Shown here: positions 1 to 53,182 of the stretch, piece by piece
Numbering within the stretch: position 1 is the stretch's first letter
Layout of the letters: every line of letters begins with the position of its first letter
From: Octopus sinensis
Taxonomy: Eukaryota
Direction: 5' to 3'
Assembly (NCBI RefSeq): GCF_006345805.1
Contig: NW_021833260.1
Coordinates: 17,369 to 81,368, forward strand
Length of the DNA: 64,000 nt
Translations under genes and position numbers: made by a program
The notes under the pieces: generated by a model
What the model was told of the DNA's origin: nothing
Databases searched by the model: none
What the model saw: only the letters and a program-made list of their open reading frames with translations

Positions 1-12
1 ATATATATATAA

Positions 13-398
13 CTAGCAGTATCACCCGGCGTTGCTCGGGTTTGTAAGGGAAATAACTATAAAGCATTTTAGAGAGTCATAGCCAAAAACTAGCAAAAAA
101 TACATTAAAAGTGGAAAAAAATTATGGTAAATTTTTTTTAAATCGTTGACACATCGTAGACATTTTTAGAGAGTTACTTCCCTTATATTAAAAAAAATAT
201 GTATTAAAATGGAAAAAAATGATGGTAAATTATTTTAAAATCGTAGACTCGTCGTAGACGCGCGCTAATACCCAGAAGGGCTTGATATGAATCACGACTA
301 TAAGATACCCGGTTTTAGTTAAACTGCACCGCAAAATGTGGGAGTAATTAGAAATCTAAATCGGAGTAGACACACAACTCTTCATTTATATATAAAGA
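13..398 (-). mobile_element. Non-autonomous Helitron-like element
   Basis: On the minus strand it starts A|TCtttatatataaatg and ends with the GC hairpin cccgagcaacgccggg followed by tgatactgCTAG|T. It sits between A and T with no TSD. Nearly the same 3' end occurs at 41477-41504. Confidence 0.75.
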
Positions 399-514
399 TT
401 TCAATACGCAGCAAATAATTCAGGAGAAAATATTTGCGAAGATATTGACTTTATTATTATCTAGTGTAGCAATTTAGAAATATTTTCTCCTGAATTATTT
501 GCTCCTTATTGAAA
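399..514. repeat. Short inverted repeat / mini-MITE
   Basis: Arms of ~37 bp: tttcaatacgcagcaaataattcaggagaaaatattt (399-435) and its reverse complement (478-514), 2 mismatches. Confidence 0.75.
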
Positions 515-797
515 ATTACGAATCAGATGCAGCTCAGACTTCAACGTGACGGGTTGGGGCTCCCCATAATGGTAACGTGTGCTGAGGAAAGTGAGGCTGT
601 AATATCAGTCAAAGGACCGGTCCGCGTCGGTCCAAATATTTGTATGTATGCTGAGAGATTATCTTAGCTCCTTTGCCTCCGGACGATTGACTTATGTAGG
701 TATTATCGGTGTATTTTGGCGATTTAAATAAGAGTTTTGGCTGTTATTTCCAGTAGGTAGAAATACTTGCCATGTCCTTTGATTAATTTGAAAAACA

Positions 798-877
798 GGA
801 GTGGCTGTGTGGTAAGTAGCTTGCTTACCCACCACATGGTTCGGATTCAATCCCACTGCGTGGTACCATGGACAAGT
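798..877 (+). mobile_element. tRNA-derived SINE family A, 5' head only (interrupted)
   Basis: ggagtggctgtgtggtaagtagcttgct...cccactgcgtgg...gacaagt matches the head of the full copy at 24221-24627. Confidence 0.8.
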
Positions 878-1387
878 AGCCAGCGGTGCCAAAATCACAA
901 AGTATGGTAAGCCAGCGGTGCCAAAATCACAAAGTATGGAAGGACAGCGGTGCCAAAATCACAAAGAATGGAAGGCCAACGGTGCCAAAATCACAAAGTA
1001 TGGAAAGCCAGCGGTGCCAAAATCACAAAGTATGGAAGGCCAGCGGTGCCAAAATCACAAAGTATGGAAAGCCAGCGGTGCCAAAATAACAAAGTATGGA
1101 AAGCCAGCGGTGCCAAAATCACAAAGTATGGAAGCCAGCGGTGCCAAAATCACAAAGTATGGAAGGACAGCGGTGCCAAAATCACAAGAATGGAAGGCCA
1201 ACGGTGCCAAAATCACAAAGTATGGAAAGCCAGCGGTGCCAAAATCACAAAGTATGGAAGGCCAGCGGTGCCAAAATCACAAAGTATGGAAAGCCAGCGG
1301 TGCCAAAATAACAAAGTATGGAAAGCCAGCGGTGCCAAAATCACAAAGTATGGAAAGCCAGCCAAAATCACAAAGTATGGAAAGCCA
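878..1387 (+). repeat. 32-bp tandem minisatellite, ~16 units
   Basis: Unit gccagcggtgccaaaatcacaaagtatggaaa. ORF starts at 886/918/950 confirm the 32-bp period. Variant units recur ~223 bp apart (aggacag at 941 and 1164). Confidence 0.95.
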
Positions 1388-1707
1388 CCGCTATGTTTCC
1401 ATACTTTGAGATTTTGGCACCGCTGGCCTTAAATACTTTGTGATTTTGGCACCGCTGGCCTTCCATACTTTGTGATTTTGGCACCACTGGTCTTCCGTAC
1501 TTTGTAATTTTGAAACCGCTAGCCTTCCATACTTTGTGATTTTGGCACCACTGGCTTTCCATACTTTGTGATTTTGGAACCCCTGGCCTTCCCTACTTTG
1601 TGATTTTGGCACCACTGGCTTTCCATACTTTGTGATTTTGGCACCCCTGGCCTTCCCTACTTTGTGATTTTAGCACCGCTGGCCTTCCATACTTTGTGAT
1701 TTTGGCA
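1388..1707 (-). repeat. Same 32-bp minisatellite, inverted, ~10 units
   Basis: Units read ttccatactttgtgattttggcaccgctggc. 1391-1470 is the reverse complement of ~4605-4690, including diagnostic variants. Confidence 0.95.
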
Positions 1708-2296
1708 TTTTCACCGAAAAGTTTACCTAAGAATGTTTCGAAAATTTTCACCAAAAATTTTCCGAGAATTTTCACCGAAAACGATGTCGACGTTTATAGA
1801 CTTCAGCATATGGAGTATATTCGCTATGTGGTTTTTCGAAAATTTTCATCGAAATTTTACACAAAAATTTTCCGACAATTTTCCCCAATAATTTTCCGAA
1901 AACGATGTCGAATATTTTAACCGAAAATTTTAGCCTAAAATTTTTTCAAAATGTTTGCCGAAAATTTTCTACAAAAATTTTTCGAAAATTTTCACCGAAA
2001 ATTTTACCCAAATATTTTTAGAAAATTTTCACAAAAAATTTTCCGAAAATTTTCTATGAAAATTTTACACAAAAATTTTTCGAAAATTTTCAACAAAAGT
2101 TTTTCGAAAATTTTCACCGAAATCTATGTCGACGTTTATAGACTTCAGCATATGGAGCATATTCGTTATATGGTTTTTCAAAAATTTTCACTGAAAATTT
2201 TCCCCCAAAATTTTTCAGAAATGTTCACCGAAAAGTTTACCCAAAAATATGTTATTGCTAAAAATAGATATTTATGTGGTGCAGCTGCTGCTTTCT

Positions 2297-2308
2297 GTGT
2301 ATATATAG
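2297..2308 (+). promoter_or_regulatory. TATA-like box upstream of Rep-like ATG
   Basis: gtgTATATATAg about 39 nt upstream of the ATG at 2339. The same upstream block precedes the minus-strand copy (~3730-3742) and occurs alone at ~2555-2615. Confidence 0.45.
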
Positions 2309-2338
2309 AGTGAATTCTGGTTTACTACTACAGTCAAG

Positions 2339-2458
2339 ATGCCTCACCATCCACGATACACCAGATTTTGCTTTACACTTAACAACTATGACGATGTCGA
2401 CGTTTATAAACTTCAGCATATGGAGCATATTCGTTATATGGCTTTTCGAAAATTTTAA
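2339..2458 (+). pseudogene. rep: Endogenous CRESS-DNA-virus (circovirus-like) Rep N-terminal fragment, copy 1
   Basis: Manual translation MPHHPRYTRFCFTLNNYDDVDVYKLQHMEHIRYMAFRKF*. RCR motif I (CFTLNNY), an acidic helix and a YMVF-like strand occur at the spacing typical of circovirus-like Reps. Truncated before motif II. Confidence 0.8.
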
Positions 2459-3226
2459 CCGAAACTTTTCCCCAAAAATTTTTCGAAAATTTTCACCGAA
2501 AATTTTACCCAAAAATGTTTCGAAAATTTTCACCAAAAATTTTACCCAAAATTTCACTCTTTATATACACATAAAGAAGCCACATAAAAATCTATTTTTA
2601 GCAATAACATAAATTTATTTTTGGGTAAAATTTTCGGTGAACATTTTCGGAAAAATTTTTGGCAAAAATTTTCCGTGAAAATTTTTGAAAAATATTCGGG
2701 TAAAATTTTCGGTGAAAATTTTCGAAAAACTATATAACGAATATGCTCCATATGCTCAAGTCTATAAACGTCGACATCGTTATCGGTGAAAATTTTCGGA
2801 AAAATTTGGGGAAAATTTTCATGGAAAATATTTGGAAAAATTTGGGGAAAATTTTCGTGGAAAATTTTCGGATAATTTTTAGTGAAAATTTTCGAATAAT
2901 TTTTGTGTAAAATTTTCGGTGAAAATTTTCGAAAAACCATATAAAGAATATGCTCCATATGCTGAAGTCTATAAACGTCAACATCGTTTTCGGTGGAAAC
3001 TTTTCGGAAATTATTGGTGAAAATTTTCGAAAAATTTTCGGGTAAAATTTTCGGTGAAAATTTTAGGAAAACTTTTGGAGAAAATTTTCGAGAAATTTTT
3101 GGGTAAAATTTGTGGTGAAAATTTTCGAAAAATTTTTGGGTAAAATTTTCGGTGAAGATTTTCGAAAAATTTTTGGGGAAAATTTTCGGCAAAAATTTTC
3201 AAAAAATTTTTGGGTAAAAATTTCGG

Positions 3227-3346
3227 TTAAAATTTTCGAAAAACCATGTAACGAATATGCTCCACATGCTGAAGTCCATAAACGACGACATCATCATAGT
3301 TGTTAAGTGTAAAGCAGTATCTGGTGTATCGTGGATGGTGAGGCAT
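3227..3346 (-). pseudogene. rep: CRESS Rep N-terminal fragment, copy 2
   Basis: Manual translation MPHHPRYTRYCFTLNNYDDVVVYGLQHVEHIRYMVFRKF*. Confidence 0.8.
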
Positions 3347-3580
3347 CTTGACTGTAGTAGTGCCAAAATCACAAAGTATGGAAAGCCAATTTTTGGTGAA
3401 AATTTTCGAAAAACCATATAACGAATATGCTCAATATGCTGAAGTCTATAAACGTCGACATCGTCATAGTTGCTAAGTGTAAAATTTTTGTGTAAAATTT
3501 TCAGTGAAGATTTTCGGTGAACATTTTCGAAAAATATTTGGAGAAAATTTTCGGTCAAAATTTTTGGGTAAAATTTTCCG

Positions 3581-3700
3581 TTAAAATAATCGAAAAACCA
3601 TATAACGAATATGCTCCATATGCTGAAGTCTATAAACTTCGACATCGTCATAATTGTTAAGTGTAAAGCAGAACCTGGTGTATCGTGGATGATGAGGCAT
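3581..3700 (-). pseudogene. rep: CRESS Rep N-terminal fragment, copy 3
   Basis: Manual translation MPHHPRYTRFCFTLNNYDDVEVYRLQHMEHIRYMVFRLF*, preceded by the TATA-containing block. Confidence 0.8.
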
Positions 3701-4466
3701 CTTGACAGTAGTAGTAAACCAGAATTCACTCTATATATACACAGAAAGCAGCCACATAAAAATCTTTTTTTAGCAATAAATAACATAAATCTATTTTTGG
3801 GTAAAATTTTCGGTGAACATTTTCGAAAAATGTTTGGGGAAAATTTTCCATCAAAATTATTGAAAAATTTTCGGTTAAAATTTTCGGTGAAAATTTTCGA
3901 AAAACCATATAACGAATATGCTCCATATGCTGAAGTGTATTTCGGTTAAAATTTTCGGAAAAATTTTGGGAAAATTATTGTGTAAAATTTTTGGAAAAAT
4001 TTTGGAGAAAATTTTCGAAGAATTTTTGGGTAAAGTTTTCGAGAAATTTTTGGGTAAAATTTTCAGTGAAAATTTTCGAAAAATTAATGGGTAACATTTT
4101 CGGTGATAATTTTCGTTAAATTTTTGGGGAAAATGTTCGCAAAAATTTTCAAGAAATTCTTGGGTAACATTTTCATTGAAAATTTTCTAAAAAATATATA
4201 ACGAATATGCTCCATATGCTGAAGACCATAAAGGTCGACATCGTTTTACGTGAAAATTCTCTGAAAATTTTTGGGGAAAATTTTCGGAAAATTCTTTGTG
4301 AAAATTTTCGAAAAATATTTGGGTAAAATTTTCGGTTAAAAAGTTCCAAAAATTTTTGAAGATTTTCGAAAAATATTTGGGTAAAATTTTCGGTGAAAAT
4401 TTTCGGAAAATTTTTGGTGAAAATTTTCGAAAAATATTTGGGTAAAATTTTCGGTAAAATTTTGAC

Positions 4467-5209
4467 TGCCAAAATCACAAAGTATGGAAACCTAACGGTG
4501 CCAATATCACAAAGTATGTAAGGCCTGCAGTGCCAAAATCACAAAGTATGGTAAGCCAGCGGTGCCAAAATCACAAAGTATGGAAGGCCAGCGGTGCCAA
4601 AATCACAAAGTATGGAAGGCCAGCGGTGCCAAAATCACAAAGTATTTAAGGCCAGCGGTGCCAAAATCTCAAAGTATGGAAACATAGCGGTGCCAAAATC
4701 ACCAAGCATGGAAGGCCAACGGTGCCAAAATCACAAAGTATGGAAAGCCAACGGTGCCAAAATCACAAAATATGGAAAGCCAGCGGTGCCAAAATCACAA
4801 TGTATGGAAAGCCAGCGGTGCCAAAATCACAAAGTATGGAAACCTAGCGGTGCCAAAATCACAAAATATGGAAAGCTAGCAGTGCCAAAATCACAAAGTA
4901 TGGAAAGCCAGCGGTGCCAAAATCACAAAATATGGAAAGCCAGCGGTGCCAAAATCACAATGTATGGAAAGCCAGCAGTGCCAAAATCACAAAGTATGGA
5001 AACCTAGCGGTGCCAAAATCACAAAATATGGAAAGCTAGCAGTGCCAAAATCACAAAGTATGGAAAGCTAGCAGTGCCAAAATCACAAAGTATGGAAAGC
5101 TAGCAGTGCCACAATCACAAAGTATGAAAAGCTAGCAGTGCCAAAATCACAAAGTATGGAAAGCTAGCAATGCCAAAATCACAAAGTATAGAAAGCTAGC
5201 AATGCCAAA
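4467..5209 (+). repeat. 32-bp tandem minisatellite, ~23 units
   Basis: Same unit as 878-1387. Distal units drift gccagcgg > gctagcag > gctagcaa. Confidence 0.95.
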
Positions 5210-5268
5210 GATTTATGTGGATGCTTATGGTATCTGATATGGATAGAATAGGCCACACAAATACAACT

Positions 5269-5491
5269 TTAACTCTTGAACATTCAGATTTCTTTGTCAA
5301 ATGTAAACCTTATTTATTCACATTTTTTTGAATTAATCATGCATTTTCTCATAGCTTCACAATTTCTATGATGTGGTTGTTTATTTTTAGAATGACCTTG
5401 TAGGGTACGTGTGAGGCATTGGATCTGCTCAGTTTTCACATAAAAGGAGAATATCTGGACCAGGAATGGCTGGATTAAATGCTAGAGTTAA
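5269..5491 (-). mobile_element. Degenerate piggyBac-like MITE
   Basis: TTAA-flanked. Diverged reverse complement of the copy at 23684-23910. Confidence 0.6.
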
Positions 5492-5495
5492 GCCC

Positions 5496-5800
5496 ACTAT
5501 AGCGTCGGGCCGACCAAAGCCTTGTGAGTGGATTTGGTAGACGGAAACTAAAAGAAGCCCGTCGTATGTGTGTATGTGTGTGTATATGTTTGTGTGTCTG
5601 GGTTTCTCCCTCCAGCATCACTTGACAACCGATACTGATGTGTTTACGTCCCCGTAACTTAGCAGTTCAGCAAAAAGAGACCAACAGAATAAGTACTAGG
5701 CTTACAAAGAATAAATCCTGCGTCGATTTGCTCGACTAAAGGCGGTGCTCCAGCATGGCCGCAGTCAAATGACTGAAACAAGTAAAAGAGTAAAAGAGTA
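5496..5800 (+). mobile_element. SINE family A, body and 3' tail
   Basis: actatagc...gggccgaccaaagccttgtgagtggatttggtagacgg...gactgaaacaagtaaaagagtaaaagag. Resumes the family A sequence a few nt after the point where the head at 798-877 stops. Confidence 0.85.
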
Positions 5801-5833
5801 TATATATATATTCATATATACACATACATATAC

Positions 5834-5881
<48 letters not shown>

Positions 5882-6149
5882 TTAGGCGCATGCACGCCGG
5901 TGTGCGGGCGCGCATGTGTAGGGACGAGCATGCGTGGTTACGCAAATACTATGAAGTTTTTGCCCCCCTTACTTTTACTCCCTTCCCTCATAGCGGTTAT
6001 TTAAATAGCTCTTTTGTCTTAATAACGGTCAATCACAGAGTCATTTCTCATAGCATTTTTCCGATGGCTGGATAACTGAAGAATGGTGGCGTGGATTTCC
6101 ACCTCGGCATCCGGAATACGGAGTTTTATCATGGCTACCGAATAATTGT

Positions 6150-6271
<122 letters not shown>

Positions 6272-13576: not shown

Positions 13577-13707
13577 AATTATCATCATCATCATCATCAC
13601 CGTCATCATCACCGTCATTATCATCATCATCACCATCATCATCACCGTCATTATCATCATCATCATTATCATCACCGTCATTATCATCATTATCATCATC
13701 ATCACCG

Positions 13708-13741
<34 letters not shown>

Positions 13742-13839
13742 TCTCATCATCATCATCGTCGTCGTCATCAACATCAACATCATCATCATCATCATCAACA
13801 CCGTCATCATCATCATCATCAACATCATCACCACCACCG

Positions 13840-13875
<36 letters not shown>

Positions 13876-13908
13876 ACATCAACATCATCATCATCATCAT
13901 CATCATCG

Positions 13909-13987
<79 letters not shown>

Positions 13988-14051
13988 CATCCTCATCATC
14001 ATCATCGTCATCACCGTCATTATCATCACCATCATTATCATCATCATCATT

Positions 14052-14087
<36 letters not shown>

Positions 14088-14258
14088 GTCATAGTTGTGG
14101 TGGTGGTAGTGGTCGTCGTTTTTGTGTTGTTCTGTTGGCATCATCCTTATAAATATCTTTAATATTGCTATCAACATTATCATTATTATAATCATTATAA
14201 CTGTTTTTATTATAGGAAATATAACAGTTGTGTTCATATTATCATCATCATCATCCTC

Positions 14259-14289
<31 letters not shown>

Positions 14290-14795
14290 TCATCGTCATC
14301 ATCATCATCGTCATCATCATCATCATCATCATCATCATCGTCATCATCATCATCGTCATCATCATCATCATCATCCTCATCATCATCGTCGTCGTCGTCA
14401 TCATCATCATCGTCATCATCATAATCATCATTCTCATCATTATCATCGTCGTCGTCATCATCATCATCGTCATCATCATCATCATCCTCATCATCATCAT
14501 CATTGTCGTCATCATCATCATCGTCATCATCATCATCATCATCCTCATCATCATCGTCGTCGTCGTCATCATCATCATCGTCATCATCATAATCATCATT
14601 CTCATCATCATCATCGTCGTCGTCATCATCATCATCGTCATCATCATCATCATCCTCATCATCATCATCATCGTCGTCATCATCATCATCGTCATCATCA
14701 TCATCATCATTCTCATCATCATCATCGTCGTCGTCGTCATCATCATCACCATCATCATCACCATCATCATCATCATCATCATCATCATCGTCATT
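13577..14795. repeat. Long degenerate (ATC)n microsatellite
   Basis: Direct reading. Source of the poly-D/H/M/I ORFs. Confidence 0.95.
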
Positions 14796-17406: not shown

Positions 17407-18437
17407 ATGTACAAAAGAAGCCTTGCAAACTCTGAATTTCAGAGACAAAGAGACAGCATTGTGGGTCATTCTGAAAGGTGGGCATAGTGTAAAATCGCTG
17501 AAAACCTTGGGATCCCACATTCTACAGTTAACAGAGTGAGTGTGCAATTCACCAGCGAGAGGAAGAAGTCCACATCACTTCGTCTAGATCAACCAGCACC
17601 CTTTGATAGGACCCTTCTCTTTGTTAAGAGAAGTGTGGAGGATAATCCTCGTTGCAAGGCCTCTGACATAGCAGAACAAGTTGATGTCAGTTGCAGAACT
17701 GCCGTCAGGTATCTCCACAAACTTGATCACTATAGCAGAGCAGTAAGAAGTACGTCTTCGACCAGCCAACATCAAGCGGGGAAAAGATTGGGCCAGTGAG
17801 ATGGTGGAGAGGCCACTAGCATTTTGGGACATTGTCATATTCTCTGTTAATCCCAGATTTACTGTATTTCCTGACAGTGGTCGAGTGTGGGTGGAGAGAC
17901 TCTGTGATCAAGAATTTGATGTGAAAAGATTGCAGCCAACAATGAAACACGGAAGCTGTTCTGTGATGGTCTGGGGAGCAATTGGGAGCAATGGTTGATC
18001 AGAGCTGGTGGAGTGTGATGGAAACAGAAACTCAGATAAATATGTGTCCGTATTGCAGAAAGAATTCCTTCCAATCTTCTCCAGTGGTGAAATGATTAAA
18101 GAAGACTCTTTATTCATGGAAGATGGGCTTCCTTGTCACACAGCTAAAAATGACCCAAGATCTGTTGGGTGAGAATGGCACTAAAAAGCTTCCATGGCCA
18201 AGCCAGTCACCAGATATGGACCCTATTGAACATCTCTGGGGCATGATGGACCGGACATTTCTTAAACAGAACAAGAAAGCATCTTCAAGGCTAGGTCTTT
18301 TGAGATTAGTGCATGAAACTTGGCAAGAAATTCTGCAAGAGAATATTCCTCAACTGATCAATAACATGCCTAATAGGGTCCTTGCATTGAAAAAGGCAAA
18401 GGGTGTGTCTACTAAATATCAAATATTCACATTATAA
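17407..18437 (+). pseudogene. Tc1-like DDE transposase, frameshifted
   Basis: HTH ([14 protein letters not shown]), [42 protein letters not shown] and AKGVSTKY, spread across ORFs 17536, 17801 and 18123. TIRs not recognised. Confidence 0.9.
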
Positions 18438-22365: not shown

Positions 22366-23163
22366 ATTCTTTTCTAATCTAGGCACAAGGCCCGAAATTT
22401 TGGGGAACAGGCCAGTCGATTAGGTCGACCCCAGTACGCAACTGGTACTCTTGTATATGAAAAGCAAAGTCAACCTCGGCGGAATTTGAACCCAGAACGT
22501 AAAGACAGATGAAATATCGCTAAGCACTTAGCACGGTGTGCTAACAATCTTGCCAACTCGACGCCTTAAGAAAATTAAGAATAATATTCTTTTCTACTCT
22601 AGGCACAAGGCCCGGAATTTTGGGGGGAGGTAACCAGTCGATTAGGTCGACCCCAGTACGCAACTAGTACTCTTGTATATGAAAGGCAAAGTCAACCTCG
22701 GCGGAATTTGAACCCAGAACGTAAAGACTGATGAAATATCGCTAAGCACTTCGCACGGTGTGCTAACAATCTTGCCAACTCGACGTCTTGAGAAAATTAA
22801 GAATAATATTCTTTTCTACTCTAGGCAGAAGGCCCGGAATTTTGGGGGAGGTAACCAGTCGATTAGGTCGACCCCAGTACGCAACTGGTACTCTTGTATA
22901 TGAAAGGCAAAGTCAACCTCGGCGGAATTTGAACCCAGAACGTAAAGACAGATGAAATATCGCTAAGCACTTCGCACGGTGTGCTAACAATCTTGCCAAC
23001 TCGACGCCTTAAGAAAATTAAGAATAATATTCTTTTCTACTCTTGGCACAAAGCCTGGAATTTTGGGGGGAGGTAACCAGTCGATTAGGTCGACCCCAGT
23101 ACGCAACTGGTACTTAATTTATTGATCCCGAAAGAATGAAAGGCAAAGTCGACCTCGGCGGAA
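22366..23163 (-). repeat. Tandem array of ~221-bp SINE-B-derived units (3.6 copies)
   Basis: Unit starts at 22366, 22586, 22808 and 23029. Confidence 0.9.
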
Positions 23164-23683: not shown

Positions 23684-23910
23684 TTAACCCTTTAGTATTT
23701 AAACCTGCCATATCCGGCCAAAATATTTAATCTGTTTTATATTCAAACTGACCAGATCCAGGCTCTCACACCTACCCTACAATGTTATTCTACATTAAGT
23801 AATTACGCCATCAAGATCTTGAAGATATGAGATAATGCACGATTAATTCAAATCAATGTGAATCAATAAGCATTATGTTTGATAGAATAATCTGAACACC
23901 AAAGGGTTAA
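23684..23910 (+). mobile_element. piggyBac-like MITE
   Basis: TTAA|CCCTTTAG ... CCAAAGGG|TTAA termini. Confidence 0.75.
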
Positions 23911-24220: not shown

Positions 24221-24627
24221 GCAGGAGTGGCTGTGTGGTAAGTAGCTTGTCTACCAACCACATGGTTCCGGGTTCAGTCTCATCGCGTGGCATCTTGGGC
24301 AAGTGTCTTCTACTATAGCCTCGGGCCGACCAAAGCCTTGTGAGTGGATTTGGTAGACGAAACTGAAAGAAGCCCGTCGTATATATGTATATATATATAT
24401 GTATGCGTGTGTGTGTTTGTGTGTCTGTGTTTGTCCCCCTAGCATTGCTTGACAACCGATGCTGGTGTGTTTATGTCCCCGTTACTTAGCGGTTCGGCAA
24501 AAGAGACCGATATAATAAGTACTGGGCTTACAAAAGAATAAGTCCCGGGGTCGAGTTGCTCGACTAAAGGTGGTGCTCCAGCATGGCCGCAGTCAAATGA
24601 CTGAAACAAGTAAAAGAGTAAAGAGTA
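24221..24627 (+). mobile_element. SINE family A, full length
   Basis: tRNA-like head (tggctgtgtggtaag / ggttcagtc), internal microsatellite, (GTAAAAGA) tail, possible taaacta TSD. Confidence 0.9.
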
Positions 24628-24823
24628 AACTAGTGGAGACGAGAATGCATTTAAAGGTTTATTACTTCACGCTCATCAGGGCTTAAGTCGTCAGTTATTT
24701 CTGTTTCGTTCATTCAGATTCGTTTAACACTCACTACTGACGTCCTTTTGTTCTTCTCCTTCCACCAGAAGTCTCTTTCGCTGCTGCTGGTCAACTTCCT
24801 AGCGAGCCGGCAGCGAAGTTCCT

Positions 24824-25778
24824 ATTTCTTTACTACCCACAAGGGGCTAAACACAGAGGACAGACAAACAAGGACAGACAAACGGATTAAGTCGATTACA
24901 TCGACCCCAGTGCGTAACTGGTACTTAATTTATTGACCCCAAAAGGATGAAAGGCAAAGTCGACATCGGCGGAATTTGAACTCAGAACGTAGCGGCAGAC
25001 GAACTACCTATTTCTTTACTACCCACAGGGGGCTAAACACAGAGGACAGACAAACAAGGACAGACAAACGGATTAAGTCGATTACATCGACCCCATGCGT
25101 AACTGGTACTTAATTTATCGACCCCGAAAGGATGAAAGGCAAAGTCGACCTCGGCGGAATTTGAACTCAGAACGTAACAGCAGACGAACTACCTATTTCT
25201 TTACTACCCACAAGGGGCTAAACACAGAGGGGACAAACAAGGACAGACAAACGGATTAAGTCGGTTACATCAACCCCAGTGCGTAATTGGTACTTAATTT
25301 ATCGACCCCGAAAGGATGAAAGGCAAAGTCGACCTCGGTGGAATTTGAACTCAGAACGTAACGGCAGACGAACTACCTATTTCTTTACTACCCACAAGGG
25401 GCTAAACACAGAGGGGACAAACAAGGACAGACAAACGGATTAAATCGATTACATCGACCCCAGTGAGTAACTGGTACTTAATTTATCGACCCCGAAAGGA
25501 TGAAAGGCAAAGTCGACCTCGGCGGAATTTGAACTCAGAACGTAACGGCAGTCGAAATACCTATTTCTTTACTACCCACAAGGGTCTAAACACAGAAGAC
25601 AGACAAACAAGGACAGACAAACGGATTAAGTCGATTACATCTAACCCCAGTGCGTAACTGGTACTTAATTTATCGACCCCAAAAGGATGAAAGGCAGAGT
25701 CGACCTCAGCGGGATTTGAACTCAGAACGTAATGCCAGACGAAATACGGCTACGTATTTCGCCCGCCGCCTTATCGCT
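24824..25778 (-). mobile_element. Five-unit head-to-tail SINE-B concatemer within a 15-bp TSD
   Basis: ~185-bp units (ctatttc at 24822, 25008, 25193, 25377, 25561). ggcagcgaagttcct occurs at 24809-24823 and 25779-25793. Confidence 0.9.
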
Positions 25779-38462: not shown

Positions 38463-38879
38463 TATTTCTTTACTACCCACAAGGGGCTAAACACAGAGGT
38501 TACGAACAAGGTCAGAAAAATGGATTAAGTCGATTATATCGACCCCATTGTGTAACTGCTACTTAATTTATCGACCCCGAAAGGATGAAAGGCAAAGTCG
38601 ACCTCGGCGGAATTTGAACACAGAACGTAACGGCAGACGAAATACCTATTTCTTTACTACCCACAAGGGGCTAAACACAGAGGTTACGAACAAGGACAGA
38701 CAAACGGATTAAGTCGATTACATCGACCCCAGTGCGTTATTGGTACTTAATTTATCGACCCCGAGAGGATGAAAGGCAAAGTCGACCTCGGCGGAATTTG
38801 AACTCAGAACGTAACGCCAGACGAAATACCGCTAGGCATTTCGCTCGGCGTGCTAACTTTTCTGCCAGCTCACCGCCTT
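38463..38879 (-). mobile_element. SINE-B dimer
   Basis: Two ~184-bp units joined at cagacgaaatacctatttc, the same junction as in 24824-25778. Confidence 0.9.
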
Positions 38880-41108: not shown

Positions 41109-41504
41109 TCTCTCTATATATAAAGCTGAAGTTGTCTGTGTATGCCAGGTTTGGTAGCCTTCAACTAACACTATCTCCTCCGAGACCCTGCGGCACAAGT
41201 TGACCGAAATTGAGTGTATGATAGAAGAAAGCTTGCTTTTCATTCCGTAGAAGAAAAAATTCAAATTTGACCATGTTAAGACCAAAAATTATTTACATAA
41301 AAAAGATGGGGTTTTTTTTTCTATGAAAATCCCTATTTTTTACGATTTTTTTACTGCTGTGTCGCCATGTTTCGGTGTATTTCAATCAGAAAAATGTTCA
41401 CTTAAAGAGCATAACAAGCTACATAATGCAAAATTTTTACTTTTCAAAAATTCCAAATCTAAAGGGTCGAAACAAACCCGAGCAACACCGGGCGATACTG
41501 CTAG
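41109..41504 (+). mobile_element. Non-autonomous Helitron-like element
   Basis: A|TCtctctatatataaag ... cccgagcaacaccggg cgatactgCTAG|T. Confidence 0.8.
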
Positions 41505-42940
41505 TTATATCCATTTTCCCCTGATTAAAATTTTGCTACACAGGCGCCATTTTCATTTCACATTGCATCTTATATTTCCTGTTTCCAGTGTATCCTTATA
41601 TTTGGATCCCTGTATATATGGTTATGTTATAGCTTTTTATGTGTGTATGTGTGCATCGCTGAATTAATGTGCATGCGTTTGTAGAGTATTGTTGTTACCA
41701 TCCTCGTGCATGCTCGCATTTGCCTGTATTTAAGCCAATACGCGTCCGTGTAATATTTTGCATTTTTCAATTTGCTATTTGTTCATTTAACGAATCTTAA
41801 ATGCAACTACGTGCATACATTCATTAATTATATTTACAGATTTTAAAATGGCGGATTTAAAATTAACCAAGCTATCTCAGCTTTCTCTTTTACAAGTCCT
41901 CCTCTCTTTCTCTCTTGATATATATACATATATATACATTATACGTATGCACACACTGCACACGCGCACCAGTACACATAGAACACATACACACGCACAA
42001 ACGCATACACGACTACCCCCGCCACACACAGAGAGATTAATTTAGATTTTCGACCGGTGTTAACACAGGCTATGTCTAACCTGATAAAATTCTTTGAGCT
42101 TTGATTACGTCATCTTCTGTGTCACTATAATTTACTGAAGTAAAGAACTATTTCGCCGTAAGGAATCCAGGAGGATTTTATCCGTGTACTATTTTTTTTT
42201 CGCCTTGAATTATGTTGGGATAATGTTAAATATGGCCGGGTCAGTTGAAGCAAAATAGTAGTATCACAACTTTCTTATTTGATGTGCCTGATTAATATAA
42301 AAGGAACATGGCAGACTTTCCAACGGTGAGTGATTTTTACACTTGTCTAATGATCATTTGCGTAATGCTTTTGGTATATTTTTTTCACATTGATGTAGCT
42401 CTCACAGACTGAGTATTATGATTTGGTCCTTTTTTTCTTTACTTTGCCCTTTTCCTTTCTTTTATTCTTTTAGTTCTTGTAAATGCCTTCAACAGAGACT
42501 CAAACTCTATGTTGACTGATGATGGAGTATGGAGGGATTTTTAAAGTCCAATGATACCCTACATACCTATTTGATTATGAAGGTTAGATTTACAAACATA
42601 CTTTCTCAGTGAAACTCAATATACCCACCATTATAGATAATACCAAATGTACATTTTCGGATTTTTCATAATGTGATGGAGGTCTTTGGTATGGCAATTG
42701 CATGCGGCTGAAGAGAGCTTTAAACCATCTGTTATGTCGATTATACATTGATGTAAGAATAGGTTGTTGTATAAAGCTTGAAACACGTGTACCGCGACAT
42801 CCTTTCGTGTTCTGTTTTTTATATCATTTGATGCATATACCCTCTCACCTCTGCTACTAGCTGGCATATACAGGTGCTTACACTTATCAAGTATTCACCC
42901 TGAATTTATTGTACCTACCATGTATATATATATATATATA

Positions 42941-52559: not shown

Positions 52560-53144
52560 ACCATATATATATATATATGATTTCAGTTGGGTCACGCCCT
52601 TCCAATTGCTATAGATTCGTATTGCATTTACGGCTGTGCCTGTCACCTGGATGGTGATAAATCCTACATTGGGAGTGGTAACGATTAGGGTATTGTGACC
52701 ATTCGTCTTTCGGTTTTCTGTAGCTTTGCTCTCTTTTACAAACCCAGTGAACATATATTCCATATTTCAAAGAAATTCAAACAATAGATATAAGACCCGA
52801 GTTAAAAAGATTTTCAACAATTCAACTTTTCTGGTTGACATTAAGATGCCCACTCCCAACAGGGGCCTTAACTCTCACATTTTAGAGCTCCATGACCTTC
52901 ATTTTTCAGGAGCAAAATCTTTTTAACAGGTTCAATAAGACAGGAATTTTGGAATATGCGCATAAAATCAGTAGTATGGGATACATGTGGCACGATTACA
53001 AGGTGTGTAAAGAGGGAAATAACCCTCATCTGCAATTTTGATGAAATTCGAAACATAAATATTCCAGTCCATTACAGAAGATATAACAGAAAAGTCTAAT
53101 TCTTCAACTGAATGTAACCGGGCAACGCCGGGTATCTCTGCTAG
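52560..53144 (+). mobile_element. Helitron-like element (3' end clear, 5' end uncertain)
   Basis: accgggcaacgccgggt atctctgCTAG|T at 53117-53145. Confidence 0.55.
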
Positions 53145-53145
53145 T

Positions 53146-53182
<37 letters not shown>

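What the first reader, a model, noticed from the sequence alone, without database searches (positions are those of the whole stretch)
878..5209. Nested fold-back architecture: 32-bp arrays forming long inverted arms around the Rep satellite
Seen: forward 32-mers (878-1387), inverted 32-mers (1388-1707), plus-oriented AT satellite (to ~2553), minus-oriented satellite (to 4466), then forward 32-mers (4467-5209). 1391-1470 mirrors ~4605-4690 including rare variants (tttaag, aaatctc, aacatag). A lone 32-mer is spliced directly upstream of Rep copy 2 (~3360-3388). Inference: this resembles a Foldback-type element with modular TIRs, or a snap-back product of rolling-circle or hairpin replication in which the 32-mers could be iteron-like Rep-binding sites. 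Any transcript would form long dsRNA.
Basis: partly seen in the sequence, partly recalled or inferred. Interest (0 to 1): 0.7.

Follow-up and report, generated by a model that had tools for sequence, protein, structure and literature searches.

The report
Inverted satellite block carrying viral fragments
This is a 4.6-kb block of short tandem repeats mixed with dead scraps of a small DNA virus's replication gene, which dropped into a common genomic repeat and later had one 1.2-kb piece flipped, so it looks like a fold-back transposon but is probably not one.

Summary
One inverted segment (1388-2553) explains all the symmetry: 2828 of 2828 inverted 16-mer pairs cross its edge and 6760 of 6760 direct pairs do not. 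The real unit is larger, 878-5495. It interrupts one copy of a dispersed SINE-like repeat, with 7 bp lost, no target duplication and no terminal inverted repeat. Both outer 32-bp arrays point the same way. Inside are about three head-to-tail copies of a compound unit: 32-mers, a palindrome-rich AT satellite, and 10 pieces of the 5' end of a circovirus-type (CRESS) Rep gene, all cut at the same point near codon 35. Rep identity is shown through relative P0003, which passes the Pfam Viral_Rep cut-off and matches PCV2 Rep. The arms match exactly over only 100 bp (1386-1485 = 4593-4692), a recent templated patch or arm-to-arm conversion. No origin stem-loop was found, so the iteron idea has no support. 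The closest known case is the Nicotiana GRD repeats. Genome-wide recurrence, read support and exogenous relatives stayed unchecked.

The parts
796..877 (+). 5' part of a dispersed SINE-like repeat, interrupted by the block
   Evidence: 70/82 and 66/77 identity to intact copies at 24222-24304 and 19410-19332; two intact copies share 68/79
878..1387 (+). Forward 32-bp array, 16 units, with a recent 223-bp (7-unit) internal duplication; ends at unit position 28
   Evidence: variant order L02-L07 repeats as L09-L14
1388..2553 (-). The single inverted segment: 10 reverse 32-mers, AT satellite, three Rep-derived pieces and one upstream segment
   Evidence: 2828/2828 inverted and 6760/6760 direct 16-mer pairs fit this one block; best edges 1384-1392 and 2546-2582
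1386..1485 (-). 100-bp exact inverted copy of 4593-4692; left junction has a 2-nt overlap inside the unit's 12-nt quasi-palindrome (8/12)
   Evidence: order-shuffle 17/20000
1708..4466 (.). AT-rich 13/24/37-bp satellite built of self-complementary 10-mers (33, 20 and 8 copies of three words; none of the three in 5801-64000), interleaved with Rep-derived pieces
   Evidence: a 74-nt sample folds with z -3.0
2244..2338 (+). Segment upstream of the Rep ATG: TATA-like word and a nonamer-like word at 2323-2331 without a stem; further copies at 2554-2625 (-, truncated) and 3701-3800 (-)
2339..2445 (+). CRESS-type Rep 5' fragment, copy 1 (about 35 codons with motif I, then runs into satellite)
   Evidence: Pfam Viral_Rep E 0.023, below cut-off; tblastn P0003 E 8e-14
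3240..3346 (-). Rep 5' fragment, copy 2, preceded in Rep sense by 15 nt and the reverse 32-mer
   Evidence: (E 0.006)
3361..3388 (+). Single 28-nt 32-mer unit; starts and ends at the same unit positions as the large arrays
3594..3700 (-). Rep 5' fragment, copy 3
   Evidence: E 0.0057; P0002 E 6e-11, P0003 E 4e-8
4467..5209 (+). Forward 32-bp array, 23 units plus 7 nt, with an older 160-bp internal duplication (F10-F13 echo in F15-F18)
5206..5267 (+). Unique tail; its first 45 nt resemble the Rep-upstream segment in Rep sense
   Evidence: shuffle p 0.001, 0.005, 0.027 against the three upstream copies; 1 of 1638 background windows; noticed post hoc
5268..5492 (.). TTAA-flanked MITE (piggyBac-like ends, label from my own knowledge) inside the tail
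   Evidence: 172/218 identity to a second TTAA-flanked copy at 23684-23910
5496..5800 (+). 3' part of the same SINE-like copy, resuming 7 nt downstream of the break
   Evidence: 67/69 and 173/194 identity to the copy at 24312-24627; the 7-nt linker is present in 3 of 3 intact copies

Best explanation
A passive, non-coding compound satellite that contains an endogenised CRESS-virus Rep fragment and was rearranged once. Steps. (1) Shown: the 5' end of a circovirus-type rep gene with about 95 nt of upstream DNA was cut near codon 35 and fused to a palindromic AT repeat, once. (2) Shown for order, inferred for mechanism: this was joined to a 32-bp repeat and amplified head to tail, about three copies of a compound unit that starts and ends in 32-mers. 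Unequal exchange or rolling-circle copying of a small circle would both do this. (3) Shown for the site, inferred for mechanism: the block entered a SINE-like copy with 7 bp lost and no TSD, most simply by capture at a double-strand break. (4) Shown: segment 1388-2553 is inverted. Inferred: it flipped by microhomology-guided template switching or end joining at hairpin-prone repeats. (5) Shown: 100 bp at the left junction are identical to 4593-4692. Inferred: they were copied when the junction formed, or later by conversion between the paired arms. The block encodes no working protein. Its likeliest effects are local cruciform instability and, if transcribed, dsRNA and silencing.
For: Single-inversion test without exception at k=16 and k=20. 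The left array and the lone unit both end at unit position 28. The sequence on the far side of the inverted block starts at a 13-mer boundary of the AT satellite, as after the lone unit, and 22 nt match it exactly when read from 2540. Microhomologies of 2 nt at 1386-1387 and about 5 nt at 2552-2556. All 10 of 10 Rep-derived pieces end at the same point. The order upstream segment, satellite, piece, satellite, piece, satellite, 32-mers recurs three times. SINE halves are collinear and as similar to intact copies as those are to each other. Rep identity. No further part of Rep in the window. ATG-bearing copies differ at 7-11 of 118 sites, so a 100-bp identical tract by descent has P about 1e-4 to 2e-3.
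Against: Only one locus was available, so amplification and insertion mechanisms are inferred. The sequence after the last reverse unit does not rebuild a junction seen elsewhere, so a deletion must be assumed at 2553. The Rep-upstream-like tail at 5206 has the opposite polarity to the rest and needs an older rearrangement or is chance. A 4-mer direct repeat flanks 1388-4691. The three ATG copies keep an open 35-codon frame and show 11 synonymous to 15 non-synonymous pairwise differences at about 20 to 85 sites. That is a mild synonymous excess (P about 0.02-0.08 by hand, ignoring transition bias), so pure neutrality is not shown.
Confidence: 0.66

Rival explanations
1. A non-autonomous mobile cassette moved by a Rep/HUH nuclease supplied in trans (GRD-, Helitron- or Replitron-like). 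The 32-mers or 13-mers act as binding sites and the concatemer comes from rolling-circle copying.
For: Insertion without TSD. Head-to-tail concatemer of rep 5' end plus upstream DNA, the layout described for GRD. A word fitting NANTANTAC lies 8-16 nt before the ATG; about 0.04 expected by chance in 50 nt. All three internal 32-mer array starts share one phase. Two broken relatives exist in the protein set.
Against: No stem-loop at the nonamer (z +1.11 and +0.78), and it departs from the canonical NANTATTAC. 7 bp are lost at the target. No TC/CTRR ends, no TT target, no 3' palindrome (0 inverted repeats in 5190-5275). No second copy in 64 kb. The shared phase can come from one ancestral junction plus an 8-nt deletion between two TG dinucleotides.
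Confidence: 0.15
2. A Foldback or other TIR transposon (1386-4692) with modular arms, inserted into an array of its own 32-mer.
For: Arms have the same module order over about 1.2 kb (BLAST 75%) and are identical over the outer 100 bp. The ends read CAC...GTG. A 4-nt direct repeat flanks 1388-4691.
Against: No TSD at 1385/4693 and none of 8-10 bp at shifts up to 3 nt; Tetris has 8-10 bp TSDs. The 4-mer occurs twice in every 32-mer and leaves ends that differ by 1 nt. The right arm continues in phase into unit F08. Inner units differ (0 of 6 identical). No transposase family among 62 of the 206 listed ORFs scanned except one Tc1-like scrap 12 kb away.
Confidence: 0.07
3. An integrated defective (subgenomic) CRESS-virus replicon whose repeats and inversion arose during viral replication, before insertion. 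The 32-mer and AT repeats would then be viral intergenic DNA.
For: Geminivirus subgenomics often carry deletions, duplications and inversions and keep the origins. The tail at 5206 joins a 32-mer array directly to Rep-upstream-like DNA. Mild synonymous excess among the copies.
Against: The tail holds a host MITE. The 100-bp patch is far younger than the 6-9% divergence among copies, so at least that junction was reworked later. No intact origin. No intact viral relative was found.
Confidence: 0.08
4. Assembly or read chimera produced the inversion.
For: Tandem-repeat region; reads not available.
Against: Fold-back reads give exact mirrors at the pivot; here 136/150 and 83/150. The two switches cancel and leave the SINE halves collinear. 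The inverted segment has its own variants and its own 64-bp duplication.
Confidence: 0.04

Closest known systems
Geminivirus-related DNA (GRD2/3/5/53) of Nicotiana (PMC5014472, passages)
   Same: Endogenous, truncated rep plus upstream intergenic DNA, clustered as multiple repeats.
   Different: Here the Rep is circovirus-type (PF02407) and only about 35 codons long. No origin hairpin is found. The piece is woven into two short satellites, the block is partly inverted and sits in an animal-type SINE.
Endogenous circoviral/CRESS elements (CVe; PMC6372831, PMC6069186; passages)
   Same: rep-derived host-genome fossils; tandem copies in cyprinid fish, amplified copies in carnivores, CRESS-group elements listed in four bivalve and gastropod molluscs.
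   Different: Those passages describe whole tandem genomes or LINE-amplified pieces, not a sub-gene fragment serving as a satellite module. The main text of PMC6069186 has no 'octopus' or 'cephalopod'.
Foldback elements (FB, Tetris, Galileo; PMC4079207, passages)
   Same: Long inverted arms with tandem repeats of variable number and a non-coding middle.
   Different: The arms here are internal, not terminal. There is no 8-10 bp TSD and no shared flanking domain.
Helentron HINEs carrying satellite arrays in oyster (PMC7492417, passages)
   Same: Short satellite arrays dispersed without TSD.
   Different: No subTIR, flank IR, microsatellite, 3' palindrome or TT target here.
Replitrons (PMC10288648, passages)
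   Same: HUH Rep related to CRESS viruses, mostly no TSD.
   Different: Replitron Reps are only distantly linked to CRESS Reps. This piece's relative matches PCV2 Rep by plain sequence search. There is no intact transposase and only a 4-nt terminal direct match.

Membership tests
Foldback/TIR transposon | Long inverted repeats at the element's termini | tested here: not met
   Insertion ends 878 and 5495 are not complementary and the outer arrays are co-oriented
Foldback/TIR transposon | Target-site duplication (8-10 bp in Tetris) | tested here: not met
   No exact TSD for 4 of 4 candidate boundaries; only 3-4 nt matches at shifted ends, the longest internal to the 32-mer
Foldback/TIR transposon | Modular arms with tandem repeats | tested here: met
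   Same module order over about 1.2 kb, also expected from inverting one unit of a tandem block
Foldback/TIR transposon | Dispersed copies with shared termini | not testable with these tools
   No host genome available; none in this window
Endogenous CRESS-DNA viral element | Homology to CRESS Rep (PF02407) | tested here: met
   Copies alone score 15.4-17.3 bits, below the 26-bit cut-off. Relative P0003 (59% identity, E 4e-8) scores 38.3 bits and matches circovirus Rep structures, best 2hw0 E 2.7e-6
Endogenous CRESS-DNA viral element | Embedded in host chromosomal DNA | tested here: met
   Flanked on both sides by halves of a host repeat with intact copies in the window
Endogenous CRESS-DNA viral element | Nonanucleotide at the apex of a stem-loop | tested here: not met
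   Nonamer-like word present but no hairpin: 182 and 158 of 200 shuffles fold as well
Endogenous CRESS-DNA viral element | Rep motifs II/III, helicase or capsid | tested here: not met
   tblastn of P0002 and P0003 hits only the N-terminal piece; capsid not searched specifically
Helitron/Helentron (HINE) | TT or AT target, subTIRs, 3' palindrome, TC...CTRR ends | tested here: not met
   Target lost 7 nt and is not T-rich; 0 inverted repeats at the right end and 2 weak ones at the left, both involving SINE sequence. The TC/CTRR rule is from my own knowledge
Replitron | Short terminal direct repeats and a Y1 Rep with a second domain | tested here: inconclusive
   Only a 4-nt match between 878-881 and 5491-5494, read from the sequence; no intact protein to test
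Iteron origin | Rep binds the repeat | not testable with these tools
   No binding data. The 32-mer shows no significant similarity to the AT satellite (p 0.18), the upstream segment or the Rep piece (p 0.3-0.7)

The most novel reading that the evidence does not exclude
The block is one copy of an animal family of non-autonomous cassettes derived from a CRESS virus: rep 5' end, origin remnant and repeat arrays, amplified by rolling circle and re-inserted without TSD by a Rep supplied in trans. It would be a virus-to-transposon intermediate that also seeds satellite DNA, and its inverted copies would make Rep-matching dsRNA.
Probability: 0.13. Interest if true: 0.72.

Novelty: new variant of a known kind. 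Interest (0 to 1): 0.36.

Why it matters
At face value it is a small, well-resolved case. A fragment of an ssDNA-virus gene has become a satellite module, and a Foldback look-alike was made by one inversion with a templated patch. It dates a CRESS-virus contact with this host's germ line to after the SINE copy inserted. I take the host to be an octopus-like cephalopod from recalled repeat families, which no call confirms; searches listed no report of a cephalopod CRESS element. If the cassette proved mobile, it would link endogenous CRESS elements, HUH transposons and satellite birth in an animal.

Tried and rejected
Word-indexed protein searches found nothing: Rep piece against longer proteins, translated 32-mer array (8000 candidates scored, 0 at E<=0.001), P0003 against longer proteins (18 candidates, 0 hits). 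The tool calls such blanks weak evidence. PDB search with the window piece gave 0 hits and the ESM Atlas no usable hit. In GTDB genomes a 23-nt core of the 32-mer had 0 matches and P0003 had 0 confirmed of 115 pattern matches. Plasmids and phages gave no match, so there is no sign of a prokaryotic source. Rfam on 1-6200: 13 matches, all below gathering scores; those at 1227-1453 reflect the junction hairpin. ARAGORN found 0 tRNA genes. Pfam hits of the 32-mer and satellite ORFs are all below cut-off and were treated as chance. P0001, the top phmmer hit, was set aside: its score sums 37 weak repeats, it has no Viral_Rep hit at E<=0.1 and BLASTP to P0003 gives E 0.075. The sources of P0002 and P0003 stayed unknown (one search gave no answer). 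The idea that 32-mer starts mark a Rep nick site was dropped: the junction at 3361 is not at the canonical nick position of the sense-strand nonamer, and one ancestral junction explains the shared phase.
Full report
OBSERVATION. There are 16 forward 32-bp units at 887-1387 (9 nt more from 878), 10 reverse units at 1707-1388, one 28-nt forward unit at 3361-3388 and 23 forward units plus 7 nt at 4467-5209. The AT satellite switches from plus to minus orientation near 2553. The mirror is exact over 100 nt, 1386-1485 against 4593-4692, and includes two unit variants present once per array. Shuffled unit orders gave a run of three identical units in 17 of 20000 trials. The identity stops there: 0 of 6 units R02-R07 have an identical partner on the right, and right-array and reverse units differ by 4.5 of 32 nt on average. 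None of these repeats occurs elsewhere in the window.

TRUE BOUNDARIES. Window 796-877 and 5496-5800 are the two halves of one dispersed SINE-like repeat, with intact copies at 24222-24627 and 19410-18964 and a shorter one from 45922. The halves match intact copies at 70/82 and 67/69, as intact copies match each other (68/79, 66/68). A 7-nt linker present in 3 of 3 intact copies is missing. So the inserted block is 878-5495. It has no exact TSD and no terminal inverted repeat, and both outer 32-mer arrays point the same way. Its right end holds about 60 unique nt and a TTAA-flanked MITE (5268-5492) with a second copy at 23684-23910 (172/218). The MITE copies are less alike than the SINE copies, which hints that the tail came in with the block from a donor locus; with two copies this is weak. 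The labels SINE, piggyBac-like and the guess of an octopus-like host are from my own recall and come from no call.

THE REP PIECE. Three copies carry an ATG (2339 +, 3346 -, 3700 -) and about 35 open codons with a motif-I-like FTLNN stretch before running into satellite. Seven shorter pieces derive from the same sequence. All 10 of 10 end at the same point, so there was one truncation. Alone the copies score 15.4-17.3 bits on Pfam Viral_Rep, under the 26-bit cut-off. phmmer against 1.84 billion representatives gave 3 hits: P0002 (78 aa, 77%, E 6e-11), P0003 (104 aa, 59%, E 4e-8) and P0001, a repeat protein that I set aside. P0003 passes the Viral_Rep cut-off (38.3 bits) and matches circovirus Rep structures (6 of 8 listed hits, best 2hw0 E 2.7e-6). 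Both relatives look broken themselves: they are short and lose similarity mid-domain. Their sources stayed unknown. No intact full-length relative was found. No downstream part of Rep is in the window. A word fitting NANTANTAC lies just before the ATG in all three copies (about 0.04 expected by chance per 50 nt), but it does not form a hairpin (182 and 158 of 200 shuffles fold as well). CRESS origins are defined by a nonamer at a stem-loop apex (PMC6186406, passages). The ATG copies differ at 7-11 of 118 sites. Pairwise synonymous/non-synonymous counts are 2/7, 4/3 and 5/5 at about 20/85 sites, a mild synonymous excess that I cannot call selection.

ONE INVERSION. All exact 16-mer pairs in 878-5209 were classed by orientation, self-complementary words left out. 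All 2828 of 2828 inverted pairs cross the edge of 1388-2553 and all 6760 of 6760 direct pairs do not; at k=20 the counts are 1499/1499 and 4027/4027. The 'nested' fold-back is therefore one flipped segment in an otherwise co-oriented block. Junctions agree. The left array and the lone unit both stop at unit position 28, and the far end of the flipped segment, read in reverse, begins at a 13-mer boundary like the DNA after the lone unit, with 22 identical nt from 2540. The order upstream segment, satellite, Rep piece, satellite, Rep piece, satellite, 32-mers occurs three times, that is about three head-to-tail copies of a compound unit. The left junction has a 2-nt overlap inside the unit's best quasi-palindrome (8 of 12) and the right one about 5 nt of microhomology. 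The AT satellite is built of self-complementary 10-mers and folds better than shuffles (z -3.0). Against this tidy picture, a deletion must be assumed at 2553, and the tail at 5206-5250 resembles the Rep-upstream segment in the opposite polarity (p 0.001-0.027, 1 of 1638 background windows, post hoc).

THE 100-BP PATCH. With paralogous modules 6-9% apart, 100 unchanged nt by descent has P of 1e-4 to 2e-3. The tract is thus recent. It was either copied from 4593-4692 when the 1387 junction formed, or homogenised later when the two arms paired. Both predict a tract ending at the junction and I cannot separate them. A fold-back read artefact is unlikely, because the pivots are not exact mirrors (136/150 and 83/150).

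HOW IT WORKS. Most likely it does nothing active. Shown: one Rep truncation, head-to-tail amplification, insertion into a SINE with loss of 7 nt, one inversion and one recent patch. Inferred: capture at a double-strand break, and microhomology-guided template switching at hairpin-prone repeats. A transcript over 1070-1707 would form a long duplex (z -52.7), but transcription was not tested.

COMPARISON. It works like the Nicotiana GRD repeats, which are truncated rep plus intergenic DNA in clustered repeats (PMC5014472, passages). It is an endogenous CRESS-type element by homology and context, like CVe in fish, carnivores and some molluscs (PMC6372831; PMC6069186; passages), but it lacks a testable origin. 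It fails Foldback membership on termini and TSD (PMC4079207, passages); the one contrary sign is a 4-nt direct repeat around 1388-4691 that is built into the 32-mer. It lacks HINE substructures (PMC7492417, passages). Replitron membership is inconclusive and unlikely (PMC10288648, passages). Defective geminivirus DNAs can carry duplications and inversions (PMC3187698, passages), which keeps a pre-integration origin of part of the layout open. Other papers were seen as search listings only. Searches listed no cephalopod CRESS element and no Rep-fragment satellite in an animal. The library is partial, and no supplements were read; the CVe tables of PMC6069186 could bear on this.

UNCHECKED. The host genome, raw reads, expression data and viral or metagenome contigs were not examined. 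Whether the 32-mer is of viral or host origin, and whether the block recurs, remain open.

VERDICT. A real structure and a new variant of a known kind: a CRESS-Rep-fragment compound satellite with one internal inversion, not a Foldback element. Interest 0.36. The mobile-cassette reading has probability about 0.13 and would merit about 0.72.

Noticed in passing
P0001 (protein hit): A 2848-aa record made of a 59-residue tandem unit whose start loosely resembles a Rep N-terminus. It may be a parallel Rep-fragment satellite elsewhere, but it has no Viral_Rep hit at E<=0.1 and BLASTP E 0.075 to P0003.
   Followed up: partly
window 24808-25747, 38463-38830, 22366-23114: Head-to-tail arrays of a dispersed repeat: 184 bp x5.1, 184 bp x2.0 and 222 bp x3.4. 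The two 184-bp units are 91% alike over 169 nt and the 222-bp unit shares 102 nt at 75%.
   Followed up: partly
window 17488-17796: Tc1/mariner-like transposase HTH fragment (HTH_Tnp_Tc3_2 E 5.5e-4, below cut-off); the only ORF with a Pfam hit among 62 scanned of 206 listed.
   Followed up: no
window 23684-23910: Better-preserved TTAA-flanked MITE with short terminal inverted repeats, same family as 5268-5492.
   Followed up: partly
window 399-514: 37-nt inverted repeat, 95% complementary, 42 nt apart, outside the block; perhaps a small MITE remnant.
   Followed up: no
window 7-45, 41472-41510, 53118-53155: A 39-nt repeat end found three times (95% and 85%). From recall it resembles the end of a Helitron-like element.
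   Followed up: no
window 13581-14794 and throughout: Very dense microsatellites, including an ATC run of about 404 copies; 173 tandem-repeat rows in 64 kb.
   Followed up: no
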